This document shows, one piece after another, positions 4,242-54,509 of a DNA stretch of 64,000 bases (its first letter is position 1; every line of letters begins with the position of its first letter). Under the pieces are notes generated by a model. The model ran no database searches. It had not been told where the DNA came from and saw only the letters and a program-made list of their open reading frames with translations. Source of the stretch: a virus; IMG/VR virus record IMGVR_UViG_3300020049_016021; one strand, given 5' to 3'. A program made the translations under genes and the position numbers.

Positions 4242-4389
4242 AAATACTGTAATCAACCGGACTATCGAGAATTCAAGCATAAAGATGTTTGTGTTCTTAG
4301 GGTAGTACTTAATTTACTTCGGCGCTAGTTTTGTCCACACTAGGGAAGTTCTTGAGTCTACTCATTCTTTTCATCTTTAAATTTTACAT

Positions 4390-5193
4390 ATGAAACAAAT
4401 TATCAAAATTACGTCGTCGAAATCAACCGAAGAAAAGGCAGTACCGACGTTTGTCCATTGGTTGTATGCTACTGTTGCAATCTTTCAAAGATTGTCGGGC
4501 ATTCAAAAGGCCAACGTTGGCGTGTTCCTTGGATTAACCCTTATGTGCGCTATGACCATAGGTGCTTGGGTGAGTATAAATACCAACCCACCAAAAACAA
4601 TCATTGTACCTGTCGTTCAAGCTTCAAGTGAGAAGGCTGACGCAGAAGAAGAGATTGTACCCGAAATTCCGCAAACTTCGGTATTTGTAGGAGAGAAAGA
4701 AACTCTGGATGAAAATCCACCAGAACCAGCTCCGGCAAAGAATTTAACCGCTTACAAAACGCAGGCGCAGGCGTATATTCAGAAGTACAAAGCTGCGGCA
4801 CAGGCTGGTTGGAGAAAACATGGAGTACCCGCAAGTATCAGTTTAGCACAAGGTCTGATTGAATCGAGAGCAGGAACTAGTAAATTAGCGGTGCAAAACA
4901 ACAATCATTTTGGCATGAAGTGTTTTTCAAAAAAGTGTGGTAAGGGGCATTGTACCAATCATAAGGACGATACCCACAAAGACTTCTTTTTGAAATTCAA
5001 ATCTCCTGCACAAAGCTGGGAAGCCCATTCAAAGCTGTTGTCATCGGGACGATATGCAAAATTAAAGAAATACGGACGCGACTACGTTCGTTGGGCCCAA
5101 GGATTAAAGCAAGTAGGTTATGCAACGGATAAAAGTTATGCTAATACACTAATTAGTGTAATCAAACGGTATAACCTAACTAAGTATGATTAG
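4390..5193 (+). CDS. Peptidoglycan hydrolase, GH73 N-acetylglucosaminidase domain (FlgJ-like), N-terminal membrane anchor
   Basis: C-terminal motifs GVPASISLAQGLIESRAGTSKLA...NNNHFGMK...YATDKSYANTLISVIKRYNL match the glucosaminidase (PF01832-type) signature; TM segment near residues 40-65. Confidence 0.7.
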   Translation: MKQIIKITSSKSTEEKAVPTFVHWLYATVAIFQRLSGIQKANVGVFLGLTLMCAMTIGAWVSINTNPPKTIIVPVVQASSEKADAEEEIVPEIPQTSVFVGEKETLDENPPEPAPAKNLTAYKTQAQAYIQKYKAAAQAGWRKHGVPASISLAQGLIESRAGTSKLAVQNNNHFGMKCFSKKCGKGHCTNHKDDTHKDFFLKFKSPAQSWEAHSKLLSSGRYAKLKKYGRDYVRWAQGLKQVGYATDKSYANTLISVIKRYNLTKYD

Positions 5194-5213
5194 GCTTACA
5201 AAATCCCCCTAAG

Positions 5214-5279
5214 GTGTGGTTCTAATGGTGATTATAGGTATTATATACTTATAGAAGGTTCGAATCCGTCCCACACCCC
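5214..5279 (+). tRNA. tRNA-like gene, atypical (66 nt); probable anticodon TAT (Ile-UAU) if folded canonically
   Basis: Perfect 7-bp acceptor stem GGTGTGG/CCACACC; canonical T-arm GAAGG-TTCGAAT-CCGTC; anticodon stem TAGGT/ACTTA with loop ATTATAT; D-arm reduced (4-bp stem, 4-nt loop GGTG), 2-nt variable loop; no CCA encoded. Confidence 0.4.
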
Positions 5280-5292
5280 TAAATTTTAAAAC

Positions 5293-6330
5293 ATGAAGAT
5301 AAACATGGAATTAACGGAAGTGAAAGCTGAATTACAGCAGAGGTACTTCCAAAGTGACCCTGCCATAAATGCGGTCATACGTGCCTTGGCACTAAAACAA
5401 AACTGTATTCTGTATGGTCCACCTGGCCATGCAAAATCTGGTATTGTCGAAACGGCCCTGAAACTCTATTTGGGTGAGGTTGCGTTCTACCAGCAGGTGT
5501 ACCAGACAAACGGCGGCATGGAAATGCCTACAGAACCCTTTGTTGGTGCCTTGGACTTGAAACGGTACCGAGAAGACGGTACTATCAACTACCAATTGGA
5601 GCATACGATATATATGGAGAAGGAGTACGCCATATTGGAGGAAGGCTTGGACGCTCCCCCGTACGTGCTCGAAACCATGAAGCAGCCATTGATGTCAAAA
5701 GTACTTTGCATCAACAATGTTTGTTCCCCAGTAAAATTACAGTCGATGTTCATCTGCACAAATCACAATCCAGTTGAATGGGCGGGTGAGGTCGACAGTT
5801 ACAAAGCGCTTTTGAAACGTTTTCCACACAGAGCTCATGTAGAATGGAGCAAGTATGACATTACCACCTGGGATGCTTATTTAACCCATTTAGGTCGACC
5901 TGACAAACTTGTGGCGGCTATGCTTGAAAAATGCCATCAAATGAATTACCCAATGGCACCGAGGGAAGCGCTAGCCTTCCAAGACCTTATCAAGTTTGAA
6001 GGTTTAAGTGGTGTTGAGACTTTCGATGACATGCATGAGAAGCCAGAAGTGTATGAGGAGCTAAAGAAGATGATGGCTTTGGTTCCTTTTGTAAGAGACT
6101 TGGAAGAAGCCGAAAGTCTAGCTCTTCAAGCAAAATTTGCCTTCGAACGAAACGATCCAAATTTTATTGCTCATTTTGGAAAGGCTAAGAGCGCTCTTGA
6201 AAACATAAAGGGGATCCCAACAACGGGTGTCTACACTGACCGTATGCGAAATACAGCCATGAATCTTTCACAGCTGTTAAAGGACCACGTTCAAAAAGTT
6301 GCAAATGCAACAGAAATCCCAAAATTATGA
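5293..6330 (+). CDS. MoxR-family AAA+ ATPase (CobS-like)
   Basis: Walker A variant GPPGHAKSG, Walker B ILEEGLDAPP, then FICTNHNPVE (MoxR/CobS pattern); ATGA-coupled to the downstream VWA gene. Confidence 0.65.
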   Translation: MKINMELTEVKAELQQRYFQSDPAINAVIRALALKQNCILYGPPGHAKSGIVETALKLYLGEVAFYQQVYQTNGGMEMPTEPFVGALDLKRYREDGTINYQLEHTIYMEKEYAILEEGLDAPPYVLETMKQPLMSKVLCINNVCSPVKLQSMFICTNHNPVEWAGEVDSYKALLKRFPHRAHVEWSKYDITTWDAYLTHLGRPDKLVAAMLEKCHQMNYPMAPREALAFQDLIKFEGLSGVETFDDMHEKPEVYEELKKMMALVPFVRDLEEAESLALQAKFAFERNDPNFIAHFGKAKSALENIKGIPTTGVYTDRMRNTAMNLSQLLKDHVQKVANATEIPKL

Positions 6331-20350: not shown

Positions 20351-21471
20351 GGATGAGGGGAGCATTGCTTCCGAGCCAACTCGACGAACACCGAGTAGGT
20401 CAGGCTTGTGAAGAGCAATGTGTTTTTTGTTTAAATCAGCATACTTATATTCCTTTATTTCATTACCCTTTAGGTGGTGGTGAAACACCAGAACGTGTTC
20501 CAGGAGTATTTATCTGTGATGATTGTGATAATAAAATCGAAGCAAAACTAAGAAGTGGCACAAATACGAAAACCATAGGTCTGTTTAATGACATACAAAC
20601 ATTTGTGTCGCAGGGGGTTTTCCCTGACCACACTTATGAGCATTATCAACACCTAAATGAGGAGATTGAGCCAAACGCAAAGGAAAAAAAATTAGCTTGT
20701 ATTTTCTGTAAGGTGCAACAACGTATAAATGTATCTGATCCTTACACGAAGGAGTTTTGTCACGAGATAGATACTCCTATGGGAGCCACTCAAAATTGGC
20801 TTGATGGTGGTAAGGTGCTTATATGCTTGTCTTGTGTAAAACTCATTGAGGATGAATTGAAGCAATTCAGAGTAGGAACTATCGAGGACTACGTAGAAAC
20901 ATTTACAGAAGTAGCTATTTGTCCTGTTTGCGATGGAAACTATTTGATTACAAACTTTGAAGACGAAGTTAGGACGCAAAATGGTACCTTATTTAAGCAT
21001 ATGTGTGGAGCTTGCACGTATGATCTGTTAACAAGTGATTCACGAAAACTCCATTATGCTGGACACGATATGCGCCAACTATATAAGGCGCGTACTGATA
21101 ATTTTGAAGCTAATACAGCGGTTATTCGTCATAAGGAAGAGATATGTGAATCTTGTGGACAGTACATTCTTATTGATCTTACATTGATTCCAGAATATGT
21201 AGTGGCACAGTATTTCGACACGGACAGTAATTACATTTGTGAATGCTGTTCAAAATATGGTGGGGGATATCCACCGTTAGTTATGAAACTCGAGGCACAC
21301 ACCCTACGCTTTTATAAGGACGATACTGGAAAATTTACCCTGGTATATTGGTCAACTGGGGACTCAAAGGTTCTTTCTGTAAGAGAAAACGTGTCGCCAG
21401 AAATAGCCAAGCAAGAACTTTTTGCTCTTTTACCTTCAACCAGTTTAATTGATGGGAACCTTGATGTATAA
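20302..21471 (+). CDS. Multi-zinc-ribbon protein (8 CxxC motifs)
   Basis: 389-aa ORF with paired CxxC motifs. Confidence 0.5.
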   Translation: MAKPFGRGANRLTQYIRMRGALLPSQLDEHRVGQACEEQCVFCLNQHTYIPLFHYPLGGGETPERVPGVFICDDCDNKIEAKLRSGTNTKTIGLFNDIQTFVSQGVFPDHTYEHYQHLNEEIEPNAKEKKLACIFCKVQQRINVSDPYTKEFCHEIDTPMGATQNWLDGGKVLICLSCVKLIEDELKQFRVGTIEDYVETFTEVAICPVCDGNYLITNFEDEVRTQNGTLFKHMCGACTYDLLTSDSRKLHYAGHDMRQLYKARTDNFEANTAVIRHKEEICESCGQYILIDLTLIPEYVVAQYFDTDSNYICECCSKYGGGYPPLVMKLEAHTLRFYKDDTGKFTLVYWSTGDSKVLSVRENVSPEIAKQELFALLPSTSLIDGNLDV

Positions 21472-24025: not shown

Positions 24026-24991
24026 ATGAACTTAGTACAAATAACAGGACTACCTGCAACAGGTAAAACTACAGGAGCACGTTTCTTAGACCCGAAGAGC
24101 ACTTACTACATTGATGCGGATGGAAAAGGTCTCTCTTGGAAAGGATGAAAGAACGCTTATAATGCGGAAAATAAAAACTACGCGAAGACGGCCGATCCCA
24201 CAACAATATATAAAGTGGTAAAGGCTGTTAGTGAGACACGCCAAGATATCAACTGTATTGTTATAGACACTATAAATGCTATGATGACAACAGAAGAGAT
24301 GGCTATCCTAGAATCTCCTTCAAGAGATAAGTGGGCGGATCAATAGGTTAGGTCCGGTACCTGTCTAATTGCTGGAATATCCTTAGAGTTTATTATACTA
24401 CAAAGTAGCTTTGAAATAAAGGCAAGCTTGATAAGTTAAAAAATAATAGAATTGGACAATCAGCAGCGAAGCCCCGAACAGGGGAACGTTCAGAGATCAT
24501 CCCTCCGAAGGGGAGTAGGGCGACTTTTAAAGCCCGAAATGGCAGGACTTTGCAATTGTGTTTACACACTAAAAGATACTAGTATAAGCGCAGAATCTTA
24601 GCAAAGAAGATATGATCCACGCCCCATAGAAATATGGGGAATAGTGCTAGCTGTAGAAGTATGAAATCTATATAAGTTAATACGTGAAATTAAGCGTGAT
24701 GATTTTGTAGTATTCGTATTAGCGCATTGCGAGGCCTATGACGTAAATGGTATTACCCATTATCGTACTATGGTCAATGGAAAGAAGCTTTCAAAGATTA
24801 ACTTGAATGCCTTTCTATCTTATAATTTATACACAAAGATAAGTGCTGGAGCTGATGGTAATTTCAACTATGAGTTGATAACCAAAAGTGATGGTACCAA
24901 TGAAGCTCGTTCAGTTATGGACGTGTTTCCAAGCAAAATTGAAAATAATCTAGAGAATGTTCGAACCGCTGTAATTGCAGCAGAAAATTAA
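24026..24991 (+). CDS. Sak4-like (AAA_24) recombination ATPase, split by a group I intron: exon 1 24026..24340, exon 2 24647..24991; in-frame TGA at 24146 and 24662
   Basis: Walker A GLPATGKT, YIDADGKG, CIVIDTINAMM in exon 1; VVFVLAHCEAYDVNG...NLNAFLSYNLYTKISAGADGNF in exon 2; both exons in the same frame class; intron length 306 (multiple of 3). Confidence 0.7.
24341..24646 (+). ncRNA. Group I self-splicing intron (IA-type core; no homing endonuclease ORF)
   Basis: Conserved elements Q-like CAATCAGCAGCG (24457), R GTTCAGAGATCATCC (24488), S AAGATATGATCC (24607) with P7 GATCA/TGATC; P5 hairpin CCCCGAACAGGGG; P9 hairpin CCCCATA-GAAA-TATGGGG; proposed P1: exon CGGAU(24336-40) with IGS GUCCG(24357-61), U-G at the splice site; P10: exon-2 CUA with IGS UAG; intron ends with G 24646. 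Confidence 0.7.
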
Positions 24992-24996
24992 ACGAA

Positions 24997-25587
24997 ATGA
25001 GTTTACAAGCAAAACTATTTTTGAACAGTGACAACGGCACAGGTGGCACAAAGATTCCAGTAGGAATTCACGAAGGAACCGTAGTTTTCAGTGGCCTTGT
25101 CACAGATCAAACTTGGACAGATATCCTGTTCTCCGAGCCAACCACTGGGAGAGCAATCCACAAAAGGCTGTTCATGCCTACTGGTAGTAAGCCGAAGGAT
25201 GGCGAAACTATTCAGGACGCATATAACAGGGAGCAAAAACGTAACCTAGGTCAAATCACTGATTTGATGCTAGTATTTCTCGGACCAGAGATCGTCGAGA
25301 CCTTCGAGGCTACAGATTATAAGGAGTTTGTTGCGAAAGCAGCTCTTCTTTTAGGTGCACATAAAAATGTACCTGTTAATCTGAAAGTAATTCCAGACTA
25401 TAAGGAGAAAATGTATCCCGAGTTGCCTTACTCAAGGTATGTAGAGCGGCACAACCCAGGGAGTGAAACAGGCCTAAAGTTATCAAAGGATGATAATGCG
25501 GCAATCTCCGAAATGGAAATGAAGCGTGCTGCCAAGTCGAACGCCGCAGGCAGTGCCTCTTCAGAGGACTTAGAGTCATTGGTCTAA
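24997..25587 (+). CDS. Hypothetical protein (possibly SSB-like; acidic C-terminal tail)
   Basis: 196-aa ORF next to the Sak4-like gene; C-terminus ...SSEDLESLV. Confidence 0.4.
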   Translation: MSLQAKLFLNSDNGTGGTKIPVGIHEGTVVFSGLVTDQTWTDILFSEPTTGRAIHKRLFMPTGSKPKDGETIQDAYNREQKRNLGQITDLMLVFLGPEIVETFEATDYKEFVAKAALLLGAHKNVPVNLKVIPDYKEKMYPELPYSRYVERHNPGSETGLKLSKDDNAAISEMEMKRAAKSNAAGSASSEDLESLV

Positions 25588-31060: not shown

Positions 31061-31137
31061 GAGGTCTCATTCACCAAATAAACATTGTAGTGCTGTTGTT
31101 GATAGACAGTCTAGTCTGCAATTGAACGAAAAACATG

Positions 31138-31174
31138 CCCCCAATCTAGGTAACACTGGGTTGGGGGTTTTTTA
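31138..31174 (+). terminator. Rho-independent terminator
   Basis: CCCCCAA/TTGGGGG stem followed by TTTTTTATT. Confidence 0.55.
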
Positions 31175-33312: not shown

Positions 33313-33473
33313 TATTAGGTACCATAGCAACTAATCCAGAATTGAGAGGTATTCTTAGCAAAAGAGTTAGGAACCTCTCTTAAAGAACTAAGGTCGAAAT
33401 ATTCTTTCCCAACCTCTCTCGTTACAAAAGTGTAATGGGGGAGGTATTTTTTTCACTTTTAAATAACTAATTC

Positions 33474-34256: not shown

Positions 34257-37200
34257 CTATGGGCGCACGGGTATTATCCCAAATAAATATTCACTGTCTT
34301 CAGCATCCTTAGAAAGAACGTCTGCTATCTGTAGTGATCCGGCAGTAAATGGCACTGCTCTAGCAACTGTCTTTAAGCCTTGGGGCCAACCGTCTCTATC
34401 AGTGTTCCCAGTAACTGGTGAAGCCATTAAGTCAAACAGAGCAATAGATGTCTTACCCATTTTGTCAATGGCCACAATTGGCTTTAAAGCTGTATCTACA
34501 AGATCAGTTAAATGAGCTCCACGAGTTAAATCTAAAATAGTTCTTTTTATAGACCTGCCAACATAAGACTTTTCTTCATCGTCGTCTAATCCAACCTTGA
34601 ATAGTACTAGTAGTAGCGTAAACCATCCAAATGTATTCAAAAGTCCAGCTAAAGCTCTAGCTCTGTGCCCTTTCAATGTATTTTCTCCAAGATTCTCTTC
34701 CGTTAGATACTGTTTACCTTTTCCAGATAGAGCTGCAAAGATAGAAGCTACAAGAACACGTAATTGACCTTCCATAACTTCAGAGTGCCATTGATAGACA
34801 GGCATACCATCAGGTTTTTGGCCCGTCAGTACATACTTACCCACAGTGATGTCTTTGTATGGAGCAGCAAATAAAACCTTTAGGTACTGGTAAAAATACT
34901 TGTGAAACTGCATAACAAAATCACCAAGTACGCTTACTTCTATTGCTGTCTTTTCTTCTTTACGATAAGAACCATTCAGTTTCTCATAGGCTCTTTTTAG
35001 AGACTTAACTTCAAGTGAAGTTAATTCCTTTAGGGAAGCATAGCTACCATCAGCTTGAAGGACTTGTCCTCGTTCTCCTATGGTCCAATTACCTTTGTTA
35101 TCGTAGGCATCCCACAATGTGACTTCTTTACCTGAAGCATCTTTTACTTTAATAGACTTCATTAACCCAGCTAGCTGCCAAAGAGCACCAAATGTTTCAC
35201 CAACTTGGTAGAACAAGAAGGCGTTAGTTGTACCATTTAGCTTTGATATTTGGTGAACTAGTCTATCATCGTTTACTTCAAATGGATAATTGTCTGGCAA
35301 CCAATCAAAGTTCTTTGCTATGTTCCAGAGTTTTGAGTCATCTTCTTGTCCTAAAAGCTTTGCTTTCATGTAATCTCTTAAGGCTACTCTTCCCCCATCT
35401 ATATTGATGGTTTCAAATGACTCTGGTGGAACTCCTAAGATGTTGGACATAAGTTTGTTAACAAGTCCCCTAGTTGATTGCGTAGTATTGGCTGCTGCAA
35501 TCATAACTGCGTTACGAATAGGAGACCACACTTTAAAAGAAAGCACAGAGTATGTTACAGAAGTCTTTAGTGCTCGGAGTATTCTATCCTGAGACACTAC
35601 TATGGGCGTCCCTTCGGGGATGTCCGTGAGTTTTTCTGTAAGTTTATTAGCCTTTAGAGTAATCTTTTTAGCAGAAACACTATCCTTAGTTGTATCCCCT
35701 AGAACCTGTAAAGTAATTTGAGAATCTAACCATTTTACCAGTCGATCATAACGAGGTTTTCCTGCCTCGTCCTTATCTTCTTGAAGACCATTATAGACGC
35801 CCATCGCAATATCGTATACCGGATCCAAACTCTCCTTCGCCTTCAAAGAAGCCATGAAATACTTAAAAGAAGCATCAACATTCCAACTATGGTTTACATC
35901 ACTGACTATAGAGGACCCGCTATGTTTAAAATACTTCAGAGGTAGACCATCTGATTCTTTTGTGTAAGCATCCTCCAAGAAATTAGTTAGGTTTCTTTTT
36001 ACGCTCTGTCCTACAACAGTTTTAAATCCAAAACCGCCAGCATAGAAAGCCTCTTCTTCACGAAGTTCAGCCAAAGGCTTTGGTATCCTAGGCAGGAAAT
36101 CTTCTGGTAATGTTTGAGGTATGCCCAACTTTTCATATCTGAATAATGGAACCGATGGATTATCAAACTTATATCCTACTACTGTATTTGCAAAGTTATC
36201 ATACTCATTTTTCATAGTAGAATACACAAAACTCCTATAATTTTTTTGGGCCTGTGTAAGCGGCACTTCTACGCCATCTTTCAAATAAGTATCCTGCAAA
36301 TTTAGATAGTACCCACCACGCTCTAAGTCGGAAGATTCTCTCCACATAAATGCAAAGTGATTCTTTGTTGTGGTGTTCATGGCTCTTGATAAGAGCTTAT
36401 GGGAAATAATACTACCGACAAACCATAGTGGAGAAAATGTGAAAAGTCCATACACATTAGCAACAGCTGCTCCACCAAGAAGTATCTTCTTGAGTAAACT
36501 TTGGTCTTCTTTATTAAGGGCAGCTTGGTACAGCTTATCATGTTCTGATTCTATTCCTAATAGATATTTCTGTGTCTTTGCCTTAGCATCCATAATTATC
36601 TTATGAAGTGTCTGGACTTTTGGATTAGAAATATCTGAAAAGTTCTTAAATTGCCAGAAAGACGAGAGATCCTCTGATTTACTGTTCAGATCTGTTGCGG
36701 CGTCCTTTTCTAGCTCGAGTATGGCGTCACTATATTTCTTTGACAGCACTCTAATATTAGGATCACTCTGAATTTCAGATTTTGTCTTCCCCTCATGCAA
36801 GATGCCTAATTTCTCTTTTAAATAAAGGTGTTTCTCCTTTGTGGATAAATGAGAAATACTATCCTGAAGCTCAATTATACTGGTAGCCTCACCCTTATAG
36901 GAAGACGCCTCTAACAACTTAGCTTCCTTTAACTTGTTATAAATCTCCGGATTAGTTTGCTTGTAGTAGTCTCCTATAGTGTACAAATACGGCTGGATGT
37001 CTAGCTCCATTATAGTTGCTTTCCCCTTGTAGTCTACCTTCACGAGCTTTATAGATCTAAACTTCATGTTAGGAAATTTTTCCTTTAACATGATAGCACG
37101 GTAGGTTAGTTCCAAATAACCCTTTGATAATTTAGAATCATTTATACCATACTTATCACCATAATCCATAAGATATGGTGTGCTCATATCACTAGTAAGA

Positions 37201-38780
37201 TTACCGGTTTTCCAGTCAAGAAGTGTAACATCTCCATTTTGATGGACAAATAATCCATCCGCTGTGGTTCCCAACTTATTTCCATCTGCATCAGTTAGAT
37301 ACTTTGATACCAAACCAATCTCTGGAGCAGCTTTGTCCTGCTTAGATCTTGGAATGCCCTTTGTACCTGTAGTATCTATCATAACACCAGAAGCGTCCAA
37401 TATGTTTTGAAAATTATCGTGGATCTTACTTAGGCGTGGATGAGCTTCTAGTGTAGTATAAGGTTCACCTAATTCTTGAGCATATCCAACAGCAAGTTGC
37501 TTAATTTTAGCCTTCTCGGTCGCATTATCTTCCAGTCTGTAATAGATATATGCGTGAACTAATTTACCAATTAATCTAGCTCCTTTAAAACGTTCTTCAA
37601 ATCCTGCAACAATCTCTGTAAACGAATAGGTATTTCCTCCGATAGTTATAGATTGGGTTACATCTTTAGGAGCAATTTTATCAATGTTTATTCCGCGCTG
37701 TTTATAGAAATTCTTAGCTGCCCCTTCAGCCGGAGTATCCATGAACCGTCTTGCTTTCTTAGAGAATTCTCCAAATAACTTGTCGCCTATAAAGGCAGTG
37801 AGACGTTTAGCAATATCAGTACCACTCTCATCTTGGTAAAAAGAACTAGTGTCAGATGTTGAATACTTAGCTGATTCTTTTAATAGTTCCGCAATGTAGT
37901 CAGGTGTTTCTGAAGCTTGCCCAGGAAACTTCTTCTTCATCATATCAGCCACTTCATCTAATCTCTGATAAGCCTCTGGAAGTTCGCTAGCACTTACATC
38001 TATTGGGGCTCTTCCCCTTAAATCCGCTACGGTTGAATAAGCAGTTAAAGAATTTTTTAATCCAAGAAGATCTCTAACAAATTGTAGAAAATAACTGAGA
38101 TAAAAAGAAGTTGGGTTCTTTACTGCTAGTCTAGCAAGATAATCTGTAACAACTTCTTCAGGATTTGAAGTATCTCTTGAATTAGCCGAATCTAATATAA
38201 CCTTAAATGTTTCTGGCTTCTGTAATCTCAAAAGATTTACAAAGGGGTGATAATATTCGTGAAAAGGCGTATCCTTTGTAGCATGGGCAGTGTTTACCAT
38301 TACTAACATTTGACCGTTTCTCTGAACGAATTTACCTTTCCATTTTATCGCTGGGGCATTTATAGTTTCAAAAGGAAATCCAAACTTCTTTGATAAATTA
38401 ACAAGTACGTTCTCTAGATCTTCTTTTGTGTACCCAGTGGAAAAGGCGGTTGTAGCAATTATCTCTTCTTTTGTTGGAGGAAATAAAGCCATTGTACCAC
38501 TAGACGTGCGTACGATGTCTCCATCTATCTTAGCATCTAAGCCGTCAAATCTGGCCGCAAAAAGATCTACAACACCAGAGAAATCTGCCACATCACCTAA
38601 ATAGTCAGTATACTTTTTAGTATAATATTCAAGATCTCTTCCAACCTCATTTGCAATTTTATCTCTTATGGGGGAGACTATTTCGGTGGGCTGTTGATGA
38701 AATTTAATTAGCGCTAGATCTTCTCCATATTTTGCTACTAGTTCTTTTCATTCCGCACTATTTTTATTTGGACAAATCAT
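34257..38780 (-). CDS. Large virion-associated protein (about 1507 aa with N-terminal extension; putative ejected/cargo protein); one in-frame TGA at codon 11
   Basis: Track ORF starts at GTG 38591. The frame stays open 63 codons upstream to ATG 38778-80 in a TAATG overlap with the stop of the upstream gene, crossing one TGA (38748-50). The extension reads as plausible protein (MICPNKNSAEWKELVAKYGEDLALIKFHQQPTEIV...). Confidence 0.55.
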
Positions 38781-41700
38781 TAGCAGTTATTTATTTTTTT
38801 ATAGACTTCAGTAAATTCTTCCATGGTTAGTTTTCCATCCTCTATTGCTGAAAATGTCTTTGAATCAAACATTAAAACAGAAAAGGTTTGAGATGTAACA
38901 TCTGTTATGTAGCCATAAGTGTTCTCCTTTAGATATACCACTTGGCCTACTTCTACGTCCGAAAATTCCCTAAGACTAGGAATGGTATGTTCTTTTGTTT
39001 CCTCGTTGAATGTTACCTCCACACTACCAAGAGCTCTTGGTATATTCAACTCAACTCTTCTTTGAGCTTCACTAAATCTAGTGTCGTGATTCAATGTTGC
39101 TGGTAGGTATCTATCAGAAAAACCTGTCTTTTTGTAAACAAGCCTAGCAAGAGCTCTTCTTGCATTAGGCCAAGTAGTTAGAGGTTCTAGTAATTCTTTT
39201 TCTACGTAAACATTAGCACTAGAAGGAATTTCATTTAATAACGTTATAGACTTATTTACCGCAGCTTGAACTTCTTCAGGAGTTGAATCCTTCGTAATGT
39301 GGGATAGTGGTAGTACTATACCCTCTTCTATTTCTGAAGTTGAGACTATTACATTATTCCGTTTTAGTGCCTTCTCCCTTATTTCCTTTATCTTATCTAC
39401 AACAACGGTTGTTCCAGTTCTACTTGATGTGAAAGATCCAGCCAGACTTCTGATAGCTGGAGCTACCTCGGTTTTTGTTAATGGAACCTTCGATTTAAAT
39501 CGGAGTGTGTACCTGTATTCAGTATCGGTCTGCCTTGCGTGCGTAACTTCATAGATAGTTAATTCTGTGCCGGATGCGTCTTGCCTATTAAAAGCGGCTA
39601 CTGTATCTCCTTTTTCAAGAATGTAACCATCGATAGCTTCGGTCAAAGTGCTACCTTGTATATTAGATCTATTTACTATTCTTCCATTAAACTCTAATTT
39701 ATCCAAACTAAAGGCAGTATCTATATCATTTATAGAAAATCTATAGTGAGGAGAACCCCCTGGCTCTGTTAGTTGCACATAGTATGTGTACTCACTTCCA
39801 GGAGTGTTTTTTAACATGTAGACTTCATTACCATATAAACGGATAAATCTAGGAGAATTATCTGAGAAAGGAACATTAAATTTTAAGTCAAAGTGTATCT
39901 TCTTGTCGGCGTAATTTGCAGTTCCATGGAATATCTTCTTATTTCCCCATGACATCTTTACATTTGCAATAGTCATTGGAGCAGTATCATTGCGCCTAAC
40001 CAAATCGGGTCTAGATCGAAGCATTTGAAATGTAAAGGCATCTTTTAGAAGAGATAGATTAATACCACTTCTAGCATCGTCTTTAGGTATGACTGCTTCT
40101 AGTCTTGCGTCCTGAGCATTTGAATAACCAATAGACCATTCGGCAGGGAATACAAGTGATAATCCAGTGCGTTCAAAATACATCCCGTCGCTTATAAGCG
40201 AATATTTAAATAGATCACGAGCAAAATCAGCCCAAGATGTTTCTGTTCCTGGTATTACCTCTTTATTATGTATAAGCTTTTCAAAGTCTTCCCTTATAAG
40301 TTCTAGCATCTCCTCATCACTTACCTTGTCTGCTACGATTTGAAGTTTTGTAACTTTATCTCTATTTGTTATAATCTCTAGGGCATTTAAGAACTCATTG
40401 CTAGAGTCAATACTCAGGACCTTACCGGCTGAAGAAATAAACTTTTGTCCCCAAGCTTCTTTCCCATAATAAGATTTTTTATCTGTGTGATAAACAGTAT
40501 CAGATGGAACGCTTGTGGAGAATGGGACACCATTTACATCAAAGTCTAAATCAGCACTAAGATATTTGATTAATTCTTTTGAAACCTCATCTGTCTTCTC
40601 TAGTTGATCGAACGGTGTGAATATATTAGTCTCATTTAGAAAACGATTTATAAATCCTTGCACTATCGGATTATAGACAAAGAAACTGTTTTCTAAGATC
40701 TTCTTGTAAAGAAGTAGTGCTCTATAAGCGGCTAACACGTGTGGAAGCCTAAGAGGTGTAGAATTTTCAAAGGCAGAATTATCAGAAGGCTTTATCTTTC
40801 TTGATAAACTTCTCCTAAGAATTTTGTTTACAAAAGTGGCCCTGATCTGAGCAAAATAGAAATCTGATAGATCTGGATTTTCCTTATACTTATCTAGTCT
40901 CTCTTTAAGTAGCTTTTCAGCTGTTTCCTCTGATTCTTCAAGAGCAGCCTTATATTCTGCTGATTCCCTAAAGGTTTCTGCTAGTGTTTCCACAAGTACC
41001 TTTTGTAGTTCAGCACCCCTGTTACTTTCATCTGCGAACTTGGTATATCTTTCAATCTTTCCTATTACAGAATCTACTTTCCAACGTTTGTTTGGTAATC
41101 CTCGCAAAGAACTATACACCTGGCTATGAGTAAACAATTCTTCTCCTACTGGGATAAGTTTCCTTAGGTTTGAAAGTACAACTAGATCTGAAATAAGTCT
41201 ATCGATTCCTCTTGTTTTACCTATGTATATGGAATCAAGTGTTGAGGTTTCAATCGATAATCGACCGAAAGCCATGCTTATGCCCTTCTGTTTCTGAACG
41301 GCTCCTATGAGCTTATCCGCTTGCTCAGGGTATAATTCATAAAGGCGGTTTTGCCAATTATCATCTTTTATAAGCTCATCCGTAAGCTTAACGAGTTCTT
41401 TTCTTAATTTCTCTGAAGTCCAACGCCCACCCTCACTTAGGGCAGTTACTGCTGGAGTTTTAAATATTCTAGAAACAGTATTCAACGGAAAGCCAAATCC
41501 AAGAAATGTTAAGAACAAATTAGCATTATTATTAGTAATACCTAATATGTGCAGTTTTTGCATCTTAACGTTGTCAATAGCCAAGTTGATTATTGTATCT
41601 ATGGTTTCAAATACATTCTTCTGTTTTTCATCAAGTCTGGAAAATCCAGATATAGTTGTTCCATTTACGGTGGTCTTAAAGATATCTTTTAGTCTAACAG

Positions 41701-42226
41701 CTTCTCGTTTTTGAATCCTGAACCCAATATTTTTTTGTATTAGGCCTTCTATAGTAGCTGCTTTATTTGCTACTAAAACCTTATTTAATTCGGTACTGCC
41801 TGCCATATAGACAAAGTTATCAGGACCAATTACAGATTCTATTGGAGTTGTACTTAGAAGATATGAAAACATCTTACCAAAGTTGGCCGCAATACCAGTA
41901 AGAGAGATACCAGAATAGGTATTATATCTTATCTGTTCTTGAGCACTGAAGTCTGTTAATTGTCCTTGTGCTGTTAAAGCGGCATCAACTTCTTCTTGAC
42001 TTTGAAAAGCCCTAACTTCTTTGTTATTTTTTTGGCTTTCAAGAGCAGCCCAAACTTCTGATAAAGAAGGTTCTTGAGCGTATGGATCATACCGTTCTAT
42101 TAGTGTTTCAGCAAGAGGAGAAAGGGGCTCAGTACTTAAGCCCCCTAATCCATTCTCGAAAACAAACGCCCTAAATTCCTCTACAGAGAATTCTTTTTCG
42201 TTTACAATTATTTTACAATCTAGCAT
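38780..42226 (-). CDS. Large virion-associated protein (1148 aa), function unknown
   Basis: Uninterrupted 1148-aa ORF; ATG overlaps the stop of the 4095-aa gene. Confidence 0.65.
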   Translation of the reverse strand: MLDCKIIVNEKEFSVEEFRAFVFENGLGGLSTEPLSPLAETLIERYDPYAQEPSLSEVWAALESQKNNKEVRAFQSQEEVDAALTAQGQLTDFSAQEQIRYNTYSGISLTGIAANFGKMFSYLLSTTPIESVIGPDNFVYMAGSTELNKVLVANKAATIEGLIQKNIGFRIQKREAVRLKDIFKTTVNGTTISGFSRLDEKQKNVFETIDTIINLAIDNVKMQKLHILGITNNNANLFLTFLGFGFPLNTVSRIFKTPAVTALSEGGRWTSEKLRKELVKLTDELIKDDNWQNRLYELYPEQADKLIGAVQKQKGISMAFGRLSIETSTLDSIYIGKTRGIDRLISDLVVLSNLRKLIPVGEELFTHSQVYSSLRGLPNKRWKVDSVIGKIERYTKFADESNRGAELQKVLVETLAETFRESAEYKAALEESEETAEKLLKERLDKYKENPDLSDFYFAQIRATFVNKILRRSLSRKIKPSDNSAFENSTPLRLPHVLAAYRALLLYKKILENSFFVYNPIVQGFINRFLNETNIFTPFDQLEKTDEVSKELIKYLSADLDFDVNGVPFSTSVPSDTVYHTDKKSYYGKEAWGQKFISSAGKVLSIDSSNEFLNALEIITNRDKVTKLQIVADKVSDEEMLELIREDFEKLIHNKEVIPGTETSWADFARDLFKYSLISDGMYFERTGLSLVFPAEWSIGYSNAQDARLEAVIPKDDARSGINLSLLKDAFTFQMLRSRPDLVRRNDTAPMTIANVKMSWGNKKIFHGTANYADKKIHFDLKFNVPFSDNSPRFIRLYGNEVYMLKNTPGSEYTYYVQLTEPGGSPHYRFSINDIDTAFSLDKLEFNGRIVNRSNIQGSTLTEAIDGYILEKGDTVAAFNRQDASGTELTIYEVTHARQTDTEYRYTLRFKSKVPLTKTEVAPAIRSLAGSFTSSRTGTTVVVDKIKEIREKALKRNNVIVSTSEIEEGIVLPLSHITKDSTPEEVQAAVNKSITLLNEIPSSANVYVEKELLEPLTTWPNARRALARLVYKKTGFSDRYLPATLNHDTRFSEAQRRVELNIPRALGSVEVTFNEETKEHTIPSLREFSDVEVGQVVYLKENTYGYITDVTSQTFSVLMFDSKTFSAIEDGKLTMEEFTEVYKKINNC

Positions 42227-45200
42227 TTTATTTTAATTAAACCGGACTCTGCGAGTTTCTTATAGAATGAAGAATTAATATCATCAGTTAATAAGTTGGA
42301 AAGCTCTTTTTGCATTCTATGCCTATTGCGCACAACATCTTCAAATGAGATAGGAGTTAAAAGATCCTTTCTATTTTTCATCTCAAGAAGATTAGTTGCA
42401 AAGTTATGAACAATGTCATTTTTGGCAACTGTTTCAGTTGTTGCATTTAGTTTTGAAAGCTTATCATTTAAATCCTTTAATTTGGCATTCAGCTGGCTTC
42501 GTTCTGCATAGGTAGCCCCCGCCATCTGACTTGTTAACAGATTGATTTGTTGACTGATAGATACTACTTTAGACGTCAAATAGTCACGCAATTTTGCTCC
42601 TTCAATAGTGATAGGTTTTCCATTTAGGTAACCATAGGCTTCCCCTACTGGAGTTACAAGATCAGGATTATAAACATGGGAAGGATCAACGCTACTTAAA
42701 ATAGTATTTAAATCTAGCGCTTCCTTCATATCATTGTAGTCTTTTCTAATAACAAACAAACTGTCTACGTCATAGTCAGAACCATGGTAGTATACTATAA
42801 GAGAAGGGGCGATTATAATGTTTCCTTGAGAAGCCGCAGACTTAGGATAAAAACCAACTACCTTCATTGGTAATAATGAGTGATAGTTAGTAGTAGGAAT
42901 CCTAAAACCAACTAAGCCATTAGAGAGCCCAAGAACATCACCAACAGTCATATAAGCAGCATACTCTTCAGGTAAGATTACTTCGCAGTAACCCTCTGAG
43001 TCGCGCCACTTTAGATTACGCATTTCTTTCGAACCGTCTGGATTAGTAATTTCGACTGGTCCAAGATCCGCTTGTAAAACTAACTTTGAGCCTTTAAATC
43101 TGAATCCTGTTGTTGCGGCTGTTATCATGGAACCTATACTAGAAACTACACGATCAGCTATTAACGGGAGATTGAAAGAAGCTTTTTGTTTTTTGGATTC
43201 TGTTTTTAGAATTTCATAAACATCCTTTGCTCCATCAAGACCGTCTAGGTTTTCAATTAACTTTGCCCTTAATAAGTTTTCAGAAGCAGCTGTTAAAGTG
43301 CCCTTGCTAGTTAGCCTTAAATCTCTTGAGACTTGCCTAACACCATTATCTATGATTGTAGCACTTGCTAAGTGTAGATCATAAATTTCATGTGTATTCT
43401 CTCCGTTTGTGTCCTGCATAGCGGTAGCCTGTGAAGGGGCTGCTACGCTTGTTTCTACACTGTGGGCTGGGTTCAACTGGAAACGTAGATTCTCATTGTT
43501 TAATGTAATGAAAGATCCTTCTGATATACTATTCGTATGTATTCGACCATCCTCTCCAAGTTTGGCTGGACTAGCAGGTCTACCAATCTTTACACCAGAT
43601 TTGAAAACCATCTGATCTGCTTTCGCATTACGCATGGCCTCTCTATAGGTGGCAAGATGAGGAAAGGCAGCAACAAGTTCGTCAGTCAAGACTTTAACAG
43701 AATATTTTACGGCTGTTGGAACACCCTTTTCTATGGAGAAATATACGGGCTTTAATACTGTATCAACAAGAGCATCAGCTCCATAAGCAGAAGCAATCTT
43801 TTCATAGAACTCTGGTAGCATAAATCCTTCAGCATCTGAAGCTTCGTAGTCAGCTCCGTAGGAAGCATTGATAGCAGCTTCTAGGTCTTCTGGAATCTCT
43901 CTTACTAAGTCTTCGACAACCAATACTTTGGATTCTTTAGGGAGCCCGTGTACAGCATCTATTAGCATAGTGTCCCCAGTAGCAGTTACTATCTGAATAC
44001 GTTTTGTTTGTTCTTCCTTGTTAGCGAAGAAAGCCTCGTCACCATAAATAATTTGAGATAAAGAATACTGGTTTATTATGAAATTAAAGTAGAAACTTTC
44101 TATTAGTTTTTCAACTATTTGATTTCTTTTTTCAAAATAATTATTTAATTCTTCATCACTCATGTTACGTTTCCATTCGGGAGCAGTTCCAATATTCAGT
44201 ATGCTAGCCGCAGCTTTTAAATCCTTGTCGGAAATAGGTACCTTAGCATTTTTCTCTGGTAATCTGATGAAAGCAGGCAATAGTTCTGCTACCTTAGTAG
44301 TTACGTGTTTCTTTACTGCCTCAATAGCTTCAGTAGTTGAAAGATCTTTTGTTGAACCAGTCAGTCCCGCAAATCTCCAAGATTGGTAATTCTTAGCATA
44401 TGTTGGATTATTTCCAAGTAACTTTGGATCAGGTCTATTTTTTTGAGCGTTGATAATAGCTAGTAAAGCTTTATCTATCTGTGCTCCTTTTAATACTGAA
44501 ACCTCTACATTAGCAATGGTCGTTCTATTTGATGGAATAGGCAGAGCTTGATAGTATTTTCCTCTTGAAGCCGCTACTCTAGAAATAAAATTACCTACTA
44601 TGTGGCGCTTTCTAAAGTCATTTAAATTTTCTTTGCGAAGGAATTTAGCGAAGCGCTCATTCCCTTTTTGTTTCCATGAATCATGTTCATTATACGAGAA
44701 CAGCGTGTTTAGACCGTTAAAGAAAATATTAGAAGATAGGAATGGATCGGTGCTTTTCACTTTTCCATTTTGTACAGAAAAAGTATCAAAACTCTTGGCT
44801 GGTCGTCCCTGTAAAGCATTTTCGAGACTTGTCAGTAGATCTGTCTGGTAGGAAGAATCAATCCATCCAAAAGCTTTTTTACCGTCGCCTCTTGTATAGG
44901 AGTGAGTTTCACCTAAAGCAAAGTGGGAATTCAACATATCTGTTAATTCATCAATAAAGCTTCCCTCATTTTCTAACAGAGTTTCACCACTTCTAGCTTC
45001 TTGATATTCTTCTTCAGTTTCGTAGTCTGTCTTCTCTGTTGCATAACCAGCCTGCAATTTTGGAGCAACAAGTTTTAAACGTTCAAAAAATAACTCAACA
45101 CTCCTAGCAGAAGCATCTGTTATTCTTTTATGGACATCTATAAGATTAAGAAACTCCTTTATAAGGCTTCTTTTCTCTTCTATTGTTTTTACATTTGTAT

Positions 45201-54507: not shown

Positions 54508-54509
54508 AA

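What the first reader, a model, noticed from the sequence alone, without database searches (positions are those of the whole stretch)
5214..5279. Atypical 66-nt tRNA-like gene (probable tRNA-Ile UAU), not the expected suppressor
It has a perfect 7-bp acceptor stem, a textbook T-arm (GGTTCGAATCC) and a 5-bp anticodon stem with a 7-nt loop AUUAUAU (U33, anticodon UAU, purine 37). It also has a truncated D-arm and a 2-nt variable loop. A phage tRNA reading AUA would fit an AT-rich phage on a host that decodes AUA poorly. The window contains no tRNA with anticodon UCA. The suppressor implied by the TGA recoding must be elsewhere in the genome, host-encoded, or act by another mechanism.
Basis: seen in the sequence. 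Interest (0 to 1): 0.5.

Follow-up and report, generated by a model that had tools for sequence, protein, structure and literature searches.

The report
tRNA-shaped RNA element, not a tRNA
The 66-base tRNA look-alike after a phage cell-wall hydrolase gene is most likely not a decoding tRNA but an odd relative of a widespread, apparently undescribed family of anticodon-less tRNA mimics that sit between phage genes, probably as RNA processing or stability signals.

Summary
The tRNA-shaped element is real. It lies at 5213..5278 (+), one base left of the reported start. Its T stem carries an A.G mismatch.

No detector accepts it as a tRNA. ARAGORN at default finds nothing, and Rfam tRNA scores 17.6 bits against a threshold of 29. 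The cloverleaf is 5 kcal/mol worse than the best fold.

The decisive evidence is comparative. In the two ~50%-identity relatives that keep a tRNA-like element in the same glucosaminidase-to-MoxR spacer, the acceptor helix (GTGTG/CACAC), an ATGGT motif and the T arm are kept. The whole anticodon arm is missing. More distant relatives carry only a plain hairpin there.

The short forms belong to a large family:
- A model gave 141 matches in 100 viral loci, often several per genome on one strand.
- They sit 0-20 nt after a gene's stop codon.
- They show strong covariation.
- The acceptor+T stack is fixed at 12-13 bp.
- No encoded CCA was seen.
- They are absent from Rfam and are rare in cellular genomes.

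The window copy carries a ~20-nt AT-rich hairpin inserted in the linker. It does not itself score with the family model.

My reading is an mRNA-embedded tRNA mimic recognised by tRNA-processing enzymes, not tRNA-Ile(UAU). The function is inferred, not shown.

The parts
5213..5278 (+). Whole tRNA-shaped element (66 nt), including discriminator C5278
   Evidence: Sequence. ARAGORN finds it only at <=90% threshold or in metazoan-mitochondrial mode. Rfam tRNA 17.6 bits over 5213..5278. Identical in JGI contig Ga0206648_1000078.
5213..5219 (+). Acceptor-like helix, 5' strand GGTGTGG (pairs with 5271..5277)
   Evidence: Seven Watson-Crick pairs. Ensemble pairing probability 0.98-1.0. The same GTGTG/CACAC helix is present in L003 and, with a U.G, in L004.
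5220..5234 (+). D-region remnant with ATGGT motif (5225..5229); possible 4-bp hairpin TAAT/ATTA with loop GGTG
   Evidence: ATGGT is nearly invariant in the minihelix family. The D-like stem has probability ~0.01 in the ensemble. TTCTA (5220..5224) is extra relative to L003/L004.
5233..5253 (+). AT-rich central hairpin (anticodon-arm look-alike; tRNA-style stem 5235..5239/5247..5251, loop 5240..5246, 'anticodon' UAU 5242..5244)
   Evidence: Pairing probability 0.99. Absent from L003 and L004. The L002 substitution A5247G keeps the closing pair as U.G.
5254..5270 (+). T arm: stem GAAGG/CCGTC with A.G mismatch, loop TTCGAAT
   Evidence: Sequence. It is the only local match of family model R1 in the window (5257..5267, 8 bits). 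Stem probability 0.12-0.24.
5271..5277 (+). Acceptor-like helix, 3' strand CCACACC
   Evidence: See 5213..5219. Acceptor plus T stack is 12 bp, as in the family (12-13 bp).
5205..5212 (+). Conserved upstream spacer motif CCCCCTAA
   Evidence: CCCCCT precedes the element in L002, L003 and L004. CCCCCAGGTGG survives inside the hairpin loop of L392. Its function is unknown.
4381..5193 (+). Upstream gene: glucosaminidase (GH73, endolysin-like); stop TAG 5191..5193, 19 nt before the element
   Evidence: Pfam PF01832 1e-31 and PHROG endolysin. This gene precedes the structured element in all relatives examined.
5293..6330 (+). Downstream gene: MoxR-like AAA ATPase, starting 14 nt after the element
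   Evidence: Pfam bpMoxR/AAA_5.

Best explanation
The element is a tRNA mimic embedded in the phage's polycistronic mRNA, not a decoding tRNA. It is the local, modified descendant of a widespread phage element. That element consists of an acceptor-like helix stacked on a T arm (12-13 bp in all), plus a GG-containing D-loop remnant (ATGGT) that can dock on the T loop to make a tRNA 'elbow'. It has no anticodon arm. In this phage a ~20-nt AT-rich hairpin and 5 further bases have been inserted in the linker, which produces a cloverleaf look-alike with a fortuitous UAU 'anticodon', and the T stem has weakened. Proposed mechanism (inferred, not shown): once transcribed with the glucosaminidase gene, the acceptor/T stack and elbow are recognised by the host enzymes that measure exactly this shape. 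RNase P would cut at 5212|5213, and RNase Z or another 3' processing enzyme would cut after 5278, possibly followed by CCA addition. That would cut the transcript between the lysis-type gene and the MoxR/VWA genes, and/or leave a structured, exonuclease-resistant end. Plain hairpins appear to do the same job at this position in more distant relatives.
For: Shown. (1) Two ~50%-identity relatives that keep a tRNA-like element in the same glucosaminidase-MoxR spacer retain the same acceptor helix, ATGGT and T arm but lack the anticodon arm: L003 AGTGTG-ATGGT-CGCA-GGGGAGG-TTCGACT-CCTCCCC-ACACT, and L004 likewise. The flanks CCCCCT and CTAA are shared with the window. (2) These short forms are strong members of a family: model R1 scores them 48.7 and 43.6 bits and finds 141 matches in 100 viral loci. 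(3) The family shows covariation. 80% of cells are paired against 62% in shuffles, the score is 0.472 against 0.152 (0/500 shuffles) and <=0.175 when the partner is slid, and the T stem is 95% paired with double changes at 6 of 7 pairs. Within single genomes the copies differ by compensatory changes. (4) The acceptor+T stack is 12 bp (44/80) or 13 bp (33/80) however it is split. This is the tRNA minihelix length, and the window element is 7+5=12. (5) 98 of 102 copies lie just after a same-strand ORF, mostly 0-20 nt from its stop, and the next ORF usually starts 10-50 nt downstream. Neighbouring genes are unrelated (140 clusters), which fits a generic transcript signal. (6) The family is virus-enriched: the same pattern gives minihelices in 103/128 viral hits but real tRNAs in 92/121 hits in cellular genomes, with only 4 minihelices. 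(7) More distant relatives have only a G+C hairpin in the same spacer, so a structure at the end of this gene is the conserved requirement. (8) tRNA status is rejected by the detectors and by thermodynamics. Inferred from established knowledge: RNase P, RNase Z and CCA-adding enzyme recognise the acceptor/T minihelix and elbow without needing an anticodon arm.
Against: The window element itself is not detected by the family model: there is no full-length hit at E<=10, only the T loop. Its membership therefore rests on positional orthology with L003/L004, not on a score. Its T stem is weak and its divergence from L002 (2/66) equals that of flanking coding DNA, so there is no direct sign of purifying selection on this copy. 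In this phage clade the element is single-copy, unlike the multi-copy genomes. No RNA ends, cleavage or expression data were available, and the enzyme involved is a guess. The direction of change (insertion here versus deletion in L003/L004) is inferred from the family consensus, not proven.
Confidence: 0.5

Rival explanations
1. Decaying relic. The element descends from a functional minihelix (or tRNA) but in this lineage is drifting, with AT-rich insertions and a broken T stem, and no longer does anything beyond perhaps forming a hairpin.
For: The T stem has a mismatch in both W (A.G) and L002 (A.A) and only 0.12-0.24 pairing probability. The family model does not recognise the element. The z-score of the fold is only -1.6. 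Substitution density equals that of the flanks. The spacer is evolutionarily fluid: hairpins, minihelices and extra ORFs come and go.
Against: The perfect 7-bp acceptor helix, a perfect T loop, the GG of the D remnant and the exact 12-bp stack are all still intact. The element is retained at the same place where every relative keeps some structure.
Confidence: 0.2
2. A genuine, structurally aberrant tRNA-Ile(UAU) that reads AUA for an AUA-rich phage.
For: The element has a 7-bp acceptor stem, a 5-bp stem with a 7-nt loop carrying U33/UAU/A37, and a canonical T loop. AUA is 35-48% of Ile codons, 23-27 per 1000. It is the single best tRNA candidate in the window at relaxed ARAGORN settings. The L002 substitution keeps the anticodon-stem pair.
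Against: It falls below the ARAGORN default and the Rfam gathering score, and the relaxed ARAGORN hit is at chance level. It has a 2-nt variable region, no proper D stem and a mismatched T stem. The cloverleaf is 5.3 kcal/mol above the MFE. The L003/L004 elements lack the anticodon arm. Other phage tRNA look-alikes carry 4- or 5-nt loops in the same position, which shows that such central hairpins need not decode. The discriminator is C rather than the A73 used by bacterial IleRS (my own knowledge, not tested).
Confidence: 0.1
3. A transcription terminator or attenuator that merely resembles a tRNA.
For: Its position is immediately after a gene. Distant relatives have G+C hairpins there, some followed by T-rich sequence: L005 ...CCTCCCCTTTAAAC, L390 ...CTCTTTTAAAC, L392 ...TTACTTTTCTAC. 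In T7-like cyanophage relatives the minihelix lies just upstream of the major capsid gene region.
Against: The terminator scan finds nothing at 5194..5292. The window's own clear terminators are G+C hairpins followed by U6-7 (about 31137..31170 and 33412..33450), unlike this element, whose tail is CCUAAAUUUU. A terminator does not explain the invariant T-loop sequence, the ATGGT motif or the fixed 12-13-bp stack of the family.
Confidence: 0.1
4. A trans-acting tRNA decoy. The released tRNA-shaped RNA would bind or titrate a host factor, for example a tRNA-targeting defence nuclease or a tRNA-modifying or CCA-adding enzyme, rather than acting in cis on the mRNA.
For: The family is virus-enriched and often multi-copy. 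It preserves exactly the acceptor/T/elbow surface that many tRNA-binding proteins read.
Against: No evidence for release or accumulation. No associated protein gene is shared by the loci, since flanking genes fall into 140 clusters. The tight placement after stop codons is better explained by a cis role.
Confidence: 0.07
5. A DNA-level site, such as attP carrying a fragment of a host tRNA gene.
For: Phage att cores are commonly 3' parts of tRNA genes (table of att cores in PMC9658991).
Against: Both strands of the acceptor helix are present, not just the 3' part. There is no integrase next to it; the neighbours are glucosaminidase, MoxR ATPase and a VWA protein. Family copies are multi-copy, co-oriented with genes and covary as RNA helices. 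They occur in a lytic-type T7-like cyanophage. The 21-nt 3' part has no exact match in viral contigs.
Confidence: 0.03

Closest known systems
mascRNA / MALAT1 and MEN-beta 3'-end tRNA-like structures (mammals)
   Same: A tRNA-shaped module embedded in a longer transcript, with a good acceptor/T minihelix and a non-decoding central arm. RNase P cleavage at its 5' side makes the 3' end of the upstream RNA, and RNase Z plus CCA addition release a ~60-nt tRNA-like RNA. This is the proposed mode of action here (from my own knowledge of that system).
   Different: It is eukaryotic and nuclear. There is no sequence homology. Cleavage is demonstrated there and only inferred here.
Plant mitochondrial t-elements and the mitochondrial tRNA punctuation model
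   Same: tRNA or tRNA-like structures between coding regions of polycistronic transcripts serve as RNase P/Z cleavage signals. In the phage family, several copies per genome lie on the coding strand directly after stop codons.
   Different: Organellar systems mostly use real tRNAs or near-complete cloverleaves. The phage elements lack the D stem and anticodon arm. The window phage has a single copy in 64 kb.
Murid gammaherpesvirus 68 TMER vtRNAs
   Same: Virus-encoded, non-aminoacylated tRNA look-alikes followed directly by hairpins and processed by tRNase Z (my own knowledge). Many family copies are likewise followed after 2-3 nt by a second hairpin.
   Different: They are Pol III transcription units in a eukaryotic virus, and the hairpins are pre-miRNAs. 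The window copy has no downstream hairpin.
tmRNA tRNA-like domain (TLD)
   Same: Acceptor stem plus T arm plus a reduced D loop, without an anticodon arm.
   Different: There is no mRNA-like domain, tag ORF or pseudoknots. No G3:U70 alanine identity pair (pair 3-70 is U-A here). ARAGORN finds no tmRNA.
Canonical phage-encoded tRNAs (e.g. AUA-reading tRNA-Ile of T-even phages)
   Same: Acceptor stem, T loop and a 7-nt loop with U33 and R37; an AUA-rich genome.
   Different: The element fails detector thresholds, the D arm and variable region are out of range, and the L003/L004 elements lack the anticodon arm.
RNase P-processed phage regulatory RNAs (P1/P7 C4, P4 CI) and RNase III sites of T7
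   Same: Phage transcripts cut by a host structure-specific RNase at conserved intergenic structures to set mRNA ends and stability (my own knowledge).
   Different: Those have different structures and no T-loop/elbow mimicry. There is no homology.

Membership tests
Canonical elongator tRNA (tRNA-Ile UAU) | Scores above the thresholds of tRNA gene detectors | tested here: not met
   ARAGORN default finds 0 genes. Rfam RF00005 scores 17.6 bits against a gathering score of 29. The ARAGORN hit at 90% threshold equals the random expectation of 0.87 per 64 kb. tRNAscan-SE was not available.
Canonical elongator tRNA (tRNA-Ile UAU) | 7-bp acceptor stem and a 5-bp anticodon stem with a 7-nt loop (U33, R37) | tested here: met
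   5213..5219/5271..5277 are perfect. 5235..5239/5247..5251 have 4 WC pairs plus 1 G.U, with loop AUUAUAU.
Canonical elongator tRNA (tRNA-Ile UAU) | D arm (3-4 bp stem, 7-11 nt loop, U8, A14, G18G19, A21) and a variable region of at least 4 nt | tested here: not met
   There are 15 nt between the acceptor and anticodon stems. At best there is a 4-bp A-U stem with a 4-nt loop, with pairing probability ~0.01. The variable region is 2 nt.
Canonical elongator tRNA (tRNA-Ile UAU) | Stable 5-bp T stem | tested here: not met
   A5256.G5268 mismatch (A.A in L002). Ensemble probability 0.12-0.24.
Canonical elongator tRNA (tRNA-Ile UAU) | Anticodon arm conserved in orthologous copies | tested here: not met
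   L003 and L004, in the same spacer with the same acceptor helix, have no anticodon arm.
Canonical elongator tRNA (tRNA-Ile UAU) | Transcribed, processed, CCA-tailed and charged with isoleucine | not testable with these tools
   No expression or biochemical data. The discriminator is C, not A73 (sequence; the IleRS identity rule is from my own knowledge).
Phage anticodon-less tRNA-like minihelix family (defined here by model R1) | Significant full-length match to the family covariance model | tested here: not met
   With filters off over the whole window there is only a local T-loop match at 5257..5267, 8 bits, E 7.5. L003 scores 48.7 bits and L004 43.6 bits.
Phage anticodon-less tRNA-like minihelix family (defined here by model R1) | Acceptor-like helix continuous with the T stem, giving a total stack of 12-13 bp | tested here: met
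   7+5=12 bp in the window element. In the family it is 12 bp in 44/80 and 13 bp in 33/80.
Phage anticodon-less tRNA-like minihelix family (defined here by model R1) | ATGGT motif 0-1 nt after the 5' acceptor strand, then a 3-7-nt linker to a G+C-rich T stem | tested here: not met
   ATGGT is present (5225..5229), but 5 nt after the helix. The linker is 27 nt with a hairpin. The T stem is A-rich and mismatched.
Phage anticodon-less tRNA-like minihelix family (defined here by model R1) | T loop UUCGANU closed by GG/CC | tested here: met
   GGTTCGAATCC at 5257..5267.
Phage anticodon-less tRNA-like minihelix family (defined here by model R1) | Lies on the coding strand shortly after the stop codon of the upstream gene | tested here: met
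   It begins 19 nt after TAG 5191..5193 on the same strand, and the next gene starts 14 nt downstream. In the family, 98/102 copies have a same-strand upstream ORF.
Phage anticodon-less tRNA-like minihelix family (defined here by model R1) | Common descent with bona fide members | tested here: met
   Same spacer between orthologous genes, same helix sequence GTGTG/CACAC although this helix varies freely across the family, and shared flanks CCCCCT and CTAA.
Intrinsic (Rho-independent) terminator | G+C-rich hairpin immediately followed by a U tract | tested here: not met
   There is no terminator-like site at 5194..5292 in the scan. The tail is CCUAAAUUUU. Clear terminators elsewhere in the window have U6-7.
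attP / tRNA gene 3' fragment | Only the 3' part of a tRNA, identical to a host tRNA gene, next to an integrase | tested here: inconclusive
   The 5' acceptor strand is present and no integrase is adjacent. There is no exact match of the 3' 21-mer in viral contigs. Host genomes were not searched with this sequence.
tmRNA | TLD with G3:U70 plus an mRNA-like domain with a tag ORF | tested here: not met
   ARAGORN tmRNA search is negative. Pair 3-70 is U-A, and there is no internal ORF domain.

The most novel reading that the evidence does not exclude
The window element is an offshoot of a previously undescribed, virus-specific class of anticodon-less tRNA mimics: acceptor helix, ATGGT elbow remnant and T arm, with a stack fixed at 12-13 bp. 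Many phages, including cultured T7-like cyanophages, would scatter these after their genes as 'punctuation marks'. They would hijack the host tRNA-processing enzymes (RNase P, RNase Z, CCA-adding enzyme) to cut and stabilise polycistronic mRNAs, or alternatively yield tRNA decoys against tRNA-directed host defences.
Probability: 0.35. Interest if true: 0.8.

Novelty: new variant of a known kind. Interest (0 to 1): 0.62.

Why it matters
For annotation, this element should not be called tRNA-Ile. It cannot be used to argue that the phage supplements AUA decoding, and it leaves the source of TGA suppression open.

More broadly, chasing it uncovered an abundant, covarying family of ~42-nt tRNA-shaped elements that current tRNA finders and Rfam 15 do not report. 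They lie on the coding strand just after the stop codons of phage genes, often several per genome. If they are substrates of RNase P/Z, phages would have a tRNA-punctuation system analogous to that of mitochondria. That would be a directly testable mechanism of phage mRNA maturation, with a cultured model already at hand: Synechococcus phage S-TIP37, NC_048026.1 at about 20516..20560.

They would also be a source of false or missed calls in viral tRNA censuses.

Tried and rejected
- **DNA similarity to GenBank phages.** Searches with the locus and with two multi-copy loci gave no match, so no annotated relative could be consulted.
- **The search for related loci with single proteins.** This gave one distant locus (L001) with no element.
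- **Exact 21-mer of the T arm plus acceptor 3' strand in viral contigs.** No match.
- **First structured pattern in metagenomes.** It returned mostly real tRNA-Ser/Leu variable arms and one coding hit. Only L015 was an R1 member; L011 is an anticodon-less tRNA look-alike that R1 did not detect.
- **Small-ORF reading of the element.** ATG in ATGGT opens 9-15-codon frames. I rejected this because the peptides are unrelated between L003 (MVAGEVRLLPTLLTN) and L004 (MVFRGGSNPPRTTNY), read directly.
- **Hidden suppressor reading.** Rejected: there is no TCA triplet in the element, and TTCTAAT after the acceptor helix has no flanking stem.
- **Family model on the window.** This failed to recover the element, so I do not claim model-based membership.
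- **Minimum-free-energy folding.** It does not give the cloverleaf and the z-score is weak, so thermodynamics alone neither proves nor disproves a structure.
- **Pfam on the small ORFs inserted after the element in L002 and L003.** No families found.
- **Literature searches.** These found tRNA-like structures in general, att-site tRNA fragments and a catalogue of viral candidate RNAs, but no description of this element type. Absence from that library is not proof of novelty.
Full report
**1. What is in the sequence**

Bases 5213..5278 (+) read GGTGTGG-TTCTAATGGTGATTA-TAGGT-ATTATAT-ACTTA-TA-GAAGG-TTCGAAT-CCGTC-CCACACC-C.

- The 7-bp acceptor helix is perfect, but it starts at 5213, one base before the reported start.
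- The T loop and its two closing G-C pairs are canonical. The T stem has an A.G mismatch.
- The anticodon-like stem has one G.U, and its loop gives U33-UAU-A37.
- The D region is 15 nt and the variable region is 2 nt.

The element lies in a 99-nt spacer. It begins 19 nt after the TAG stop of a GH73 glucosaminidase (endolysin-like) gene and ends 14 nt before a MoxR-like AAA ATPase gene, which is followed by a VWA-domain gene. All are on the + strand.

**2. Do detectors and statistics accept it as a tRNA?**

They do not.

- ARAGORN at default finds no tRNA or tmRNA anywhere in the 64 kb.
- Rfam at gathering thresholds finds only a group I intron at 24311..24639.
- In a permissive 301-nt search the Rfam tRNA model gives 17.6 bits against a gathering score of 29, E=0.39.
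- ARAGORN recovers the element as tRNA-Ile(tat) only at 90% of its threshold, or in metazoan-mitochondrial mode.
- At 90% it is the only hit in the window, but composition-matched random sequences give 0.87 hits per 64 kb.
- At 80% the window gives 28 hits and random sequences give 20-37.
- The cloverleaf costs -12.5 kcal/mol against an MFE of -17.8. In the ensemble the acceptor helix (about 1.0) and the central AT hairpin (0.99) form, whereas the T stem (0.12-0.24) and a D stem (0.01) do not.
- The fold z-score is -1.6.

Taken alone, the element is a borderline look-alike.

**3. Relatives at the same locus**

The MoxR protein has few relatives. Their contigs, and others reached through an alignment-based scan and through the glucosaminidase, all keep the order glucosaminidase, spacer, (small ORF), MoxR.

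- **Identical copy.** A JGI contig (3300020036, Ga0206648_1000078) is identical over the element.
- **L002 (99% protein identity).** It has the element with two substitutions. A5247G turns the closing pair of the central stem into U.G. G5268A leaves the T-stem mismatch as A.A. It also has an extra small ORF inserted right after the element.
- **L003/L008/L018 (49%) and L004 (50%).** At the same place they have CCCCCT-A-GTGTG-ATGGT-CGCA-GGGGAGG-TTCGACT-CCTCCCC-ACAC-TTCTAA and CCCCCT-GGTGTG-ATGGT-CTTTA-GGGGAGG-CTCGAAT-CCTCCCC-GCACC-ACTAA. They share the acceptor helix, the ATGGT, the T arm and the flanks of the window element, but they have no anticodon arm.
- **More distant relatives.** L005, L006, L019, L020, L023, L389, L390/391 and L392/393 have only a G+C-rich hairpin in the spacer, sometimes with a T-rich tail. 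L392 still carries CCCCCAGGTGG in its loop.

The conserved requirement at this site is therefore a stable structure after the glucosaminidase gene. In the sub-clade of the window it is tRNA-shaped, and the conserved tRNA-like part is the acceptor/T minihelix, not the anticodon arm.

**4. The short form belongs to a large family**

A pattern that fixes only ATGGT and the T arm hit at least 120 viral contigs.

- **Flanking helix.** In 103 of 128 matches a contiguous 5-8-bp helix of unconstrained sequence flanks the motif exactly as an acceptor stem would. The expectation by chance is about 7%.
- **Not known to existing tools.** ARAGORN calls none of them. Rfam 15 has no family for them. The only weak similarity is to the tRNA model with the D and anticodon arms deleted, 21 bits.
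- **Model search.** A covariance model (R1, from 72 sequences, 13 pairs) finds 141 matches in 100 loci. Many of these were not found by the pattern, and some loci have 3-8 copies, all on one strand.
- **Covariation.** It is strong. 80% of cells are paired against 62% in shuffles. The score is 0.472 against 0.152 (0/500 shuffles) and <=0.175 for slid partners. The T stem is 95% paired, with double changes at 6 of 7 pairs. Copies within one genome differ by compensatory changes.
- **Stack length.** The acceptor+T stack is 12 bp (44/80) or 13 bp (33/80) however it is divided. This matches the 7+5 of tRNA.
- **No encoded CCA.** The three bases after the discriminator are varied.
- **Genomic position.** 98 of 102 copies follow a same-strand ORF, mostly within 20 nt of its stop, and the next ORF usually starts 10-50 nt later. 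Flanking genes are unrelated to one another, including major capsid proteins and ArdC-like proteins.
- **Second hairpin.** Many copies are followed after 2-3 nt by a second hairpin.
- **Virus enrichment.** The same pattern in cellular genomes hits real tRNAs in 92 of 121 cases (tRNA-Phe 65, tRNA-Ser 20) and minihelices in only 4.
- **A cultured example.** One sub-group belongs to T7-like cyanopodoviruses. The cultured Synechococcus phage S-TIP37 has an unannotated copy just upstream of its major head gene.
- **Intermediate forms.** Viral contigs also contain tRNA look-alikes that have a central hairpin with a 4- or 5-nt loop, which cannot decode.

**5. Where the window element stands**

R1 does not detect it. 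With filters off, only the T loop matches, at 8 bits, and there are no other copies in the window.

Its link to the family is by descent: the same spacer, the same helix sequence (which varies freely in the family) and the same flanks as L003 and L004. Relative to them it has TTCTA inserted before ATGGT, a ~20-nt AT-rich hairpin in the linker, and a T stem whose 5' strand has drifted from GGGGAGG to TAGAAGG.

I read it as a derived, partly degenerate variant whose inserted hairpin happens to complete a cloverleaf. The opposite direction, with a tRNA ancestor and deletions in L003/L004, cannot be excluded. Even then, the part kept under selection in relatives lacks an anticodon.

**6. How it most likely works (inference)**

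The conserved features are those read by enzymes that handle tRNA ends without touching the anticodon: a 12-bp acceptor/T stack, a T loop, and a GG that can dock on it. These enzymes are RNase P, RNase Z and the CCA-adding enzyme (established knowledge, not tested here).

The elements lie on the coding strand directly after stop codons. They would therefore be transcribed within polycistronic mRNAs and could direct cleavage, or leave structured, protected ends. At this locus that would separate the lysis-type gene from the MoxR/VWA genes.

Replacement of the element by plain hairpins in relatives fits a transcript-end or stability role. It is not a canonical intrinsic terminator. The scan finds none here, and the window's clear terminators are hairpins followed by U6-7.

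**7.

- **In-frame TGA is real.** It occurs in PolA (TGA 16254, inside the Pfam DNA_pol_A match 224-587), a primase-like gene (26511), a DnaB-like gene (23886) and an ORF at 22765. None occurs in the six giant minus-strand ORFs, which end only in TAA or TAG.
- **No credible suppressor tRNA** is in the window.
- **AUA is frequent**, at 35-48% of Ile codons. Demand for an AUA reader is plausible, but this element is unlikely to supply it.
- **Probable host.** The closest cellular glucosaminidases are named Saprospiraceae/Chitinophagales MAGs, which suggests a Bacteroidota host (inference). PolA is only about 33% identical to any named phage, including a crAss-like phage.

**8. Comparison with known systems and novelty**

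In function, the closest analogues are the MALAT1/mascRNA module, plant mitochondrial t-elements and mitochondrial tRNA punctuation, and the MHV68 vtRNA-hairpin units. In structure, the closest is the tmRNA tRNA-like domain. The element is a member of none of these.

I found no description of this phage family in Rfam 15 or in full-text searches. A large catalogue of viral candidate RNAs mentions unspecified 'tRNA-like' candidates (PMC10690425), which may overlap with it.

**9. Verdict**

The element itself is a modest, possibly decaying variant. It nevertheless points to an abundant and apparently uncatalogued class of phage tRNA mimics whose function is testable.

Noticed in passing
window 24311..24639 (+): Group I intron (Rfam RF00028, 64.4 bits, full-length model match). 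It lies about 290 nt downstream of the DnaB-like ORF (ends 24023) and just before ORFs at 24665..24991 and 24949..25587. The interrupted gene was not identified.
   Followed up: no
window 16254, 26511, 23886, 22765 (+): In-frame TGA codons inside PolA, a Toprim primase-like gene, a DnaB-like helicase gene and an unknown ORF. The Pfam DNA_pol_A match spans the PolA TGA. 12 of 31 plus-strand ORFs 'end' in TGA, whereas the six giant minus-strand ORFs contain no TGA and end in TAA or TAG. This suggests strand- or module-specific TGA reassignment or read-through.
   Followed up: partly
window 34257..64000 (-): A block of giant ORFs on the minus strand (1496, 1150, 4101, 634, 919, 1413 aa and a seventh running off the end), open in the standard code. 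It is reminiscent of the large virion-protein/RNAP blocks of crAss-like phages. These were not annotated here.
   Followed up: no
L002 298..561; L003 3637..3987: Small unrelated ORFs (87-116 aa, no Pfam hit) are inserted immediately downstream of the tRNA-like element in some relatives but not in the window or L004. The site behind the element is an indel ('moron'-like) hotspot.
   Followed up: partly
window 5205..5212; L003, L004, L392 spacers: The motif CCCCCT(A/G)(G)GTG just upstream of or overlapping the element's 5' end is conserved even in L392, where the tRNA-like part is replaced by a different hairpin. In L003 the C run can pair with the G-rich T-stem strand, giving an alternative fold. 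Its role is unknown.
   Followed up: no
L386 1339..1383 (NC_048026.1 about 20516..20560): The cultured Synechococcus T7-like phage S-TIP37 carries an unannotated family member (25.3 bits) overlapping the end of gp32, downstream of psbA and 118 nt upstream of the major head gene. It is a possible experimental model.
   Followed up: partly
L054, L057, L079, L096, L075 (copies listed): In many multi-copy genomes each minihelix is followed after 2-3 nt by a second, unrelated 5-9-bp hairpin and then the next gene. This composite architecture is not present in the window.
   Followed up: partly
L009 10716..10773 (-); L011 4973..5025 (-); L307/L348/L369; L327/L329; L302: These are further kinds of tRNA look-alikes in viral or metagenomic contigs that ARAGORN does not call. 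Examples are a full D arm without an anticodon arm (L009), and central arms with 4- or 5-nt loops. There seems to be a spectrum of non-decoding tRNA mimics.
   Followed up: partly
L031 10599..10653 (-): Glutamine-II riboswitch (Rfam RF01704, 56.3 bits) in a T7-like cyanophage contig that also carries a minihelix.
   Followed up: no
window about 31137..31170 and 33412..33450 (+): Two textbook intrinsic terminators (long G+C hairpin followed by U6-7) lie in plus-strand intergenic regions. This shows that the phage uses ordinary terminators elsewhere.
   Followed up: no
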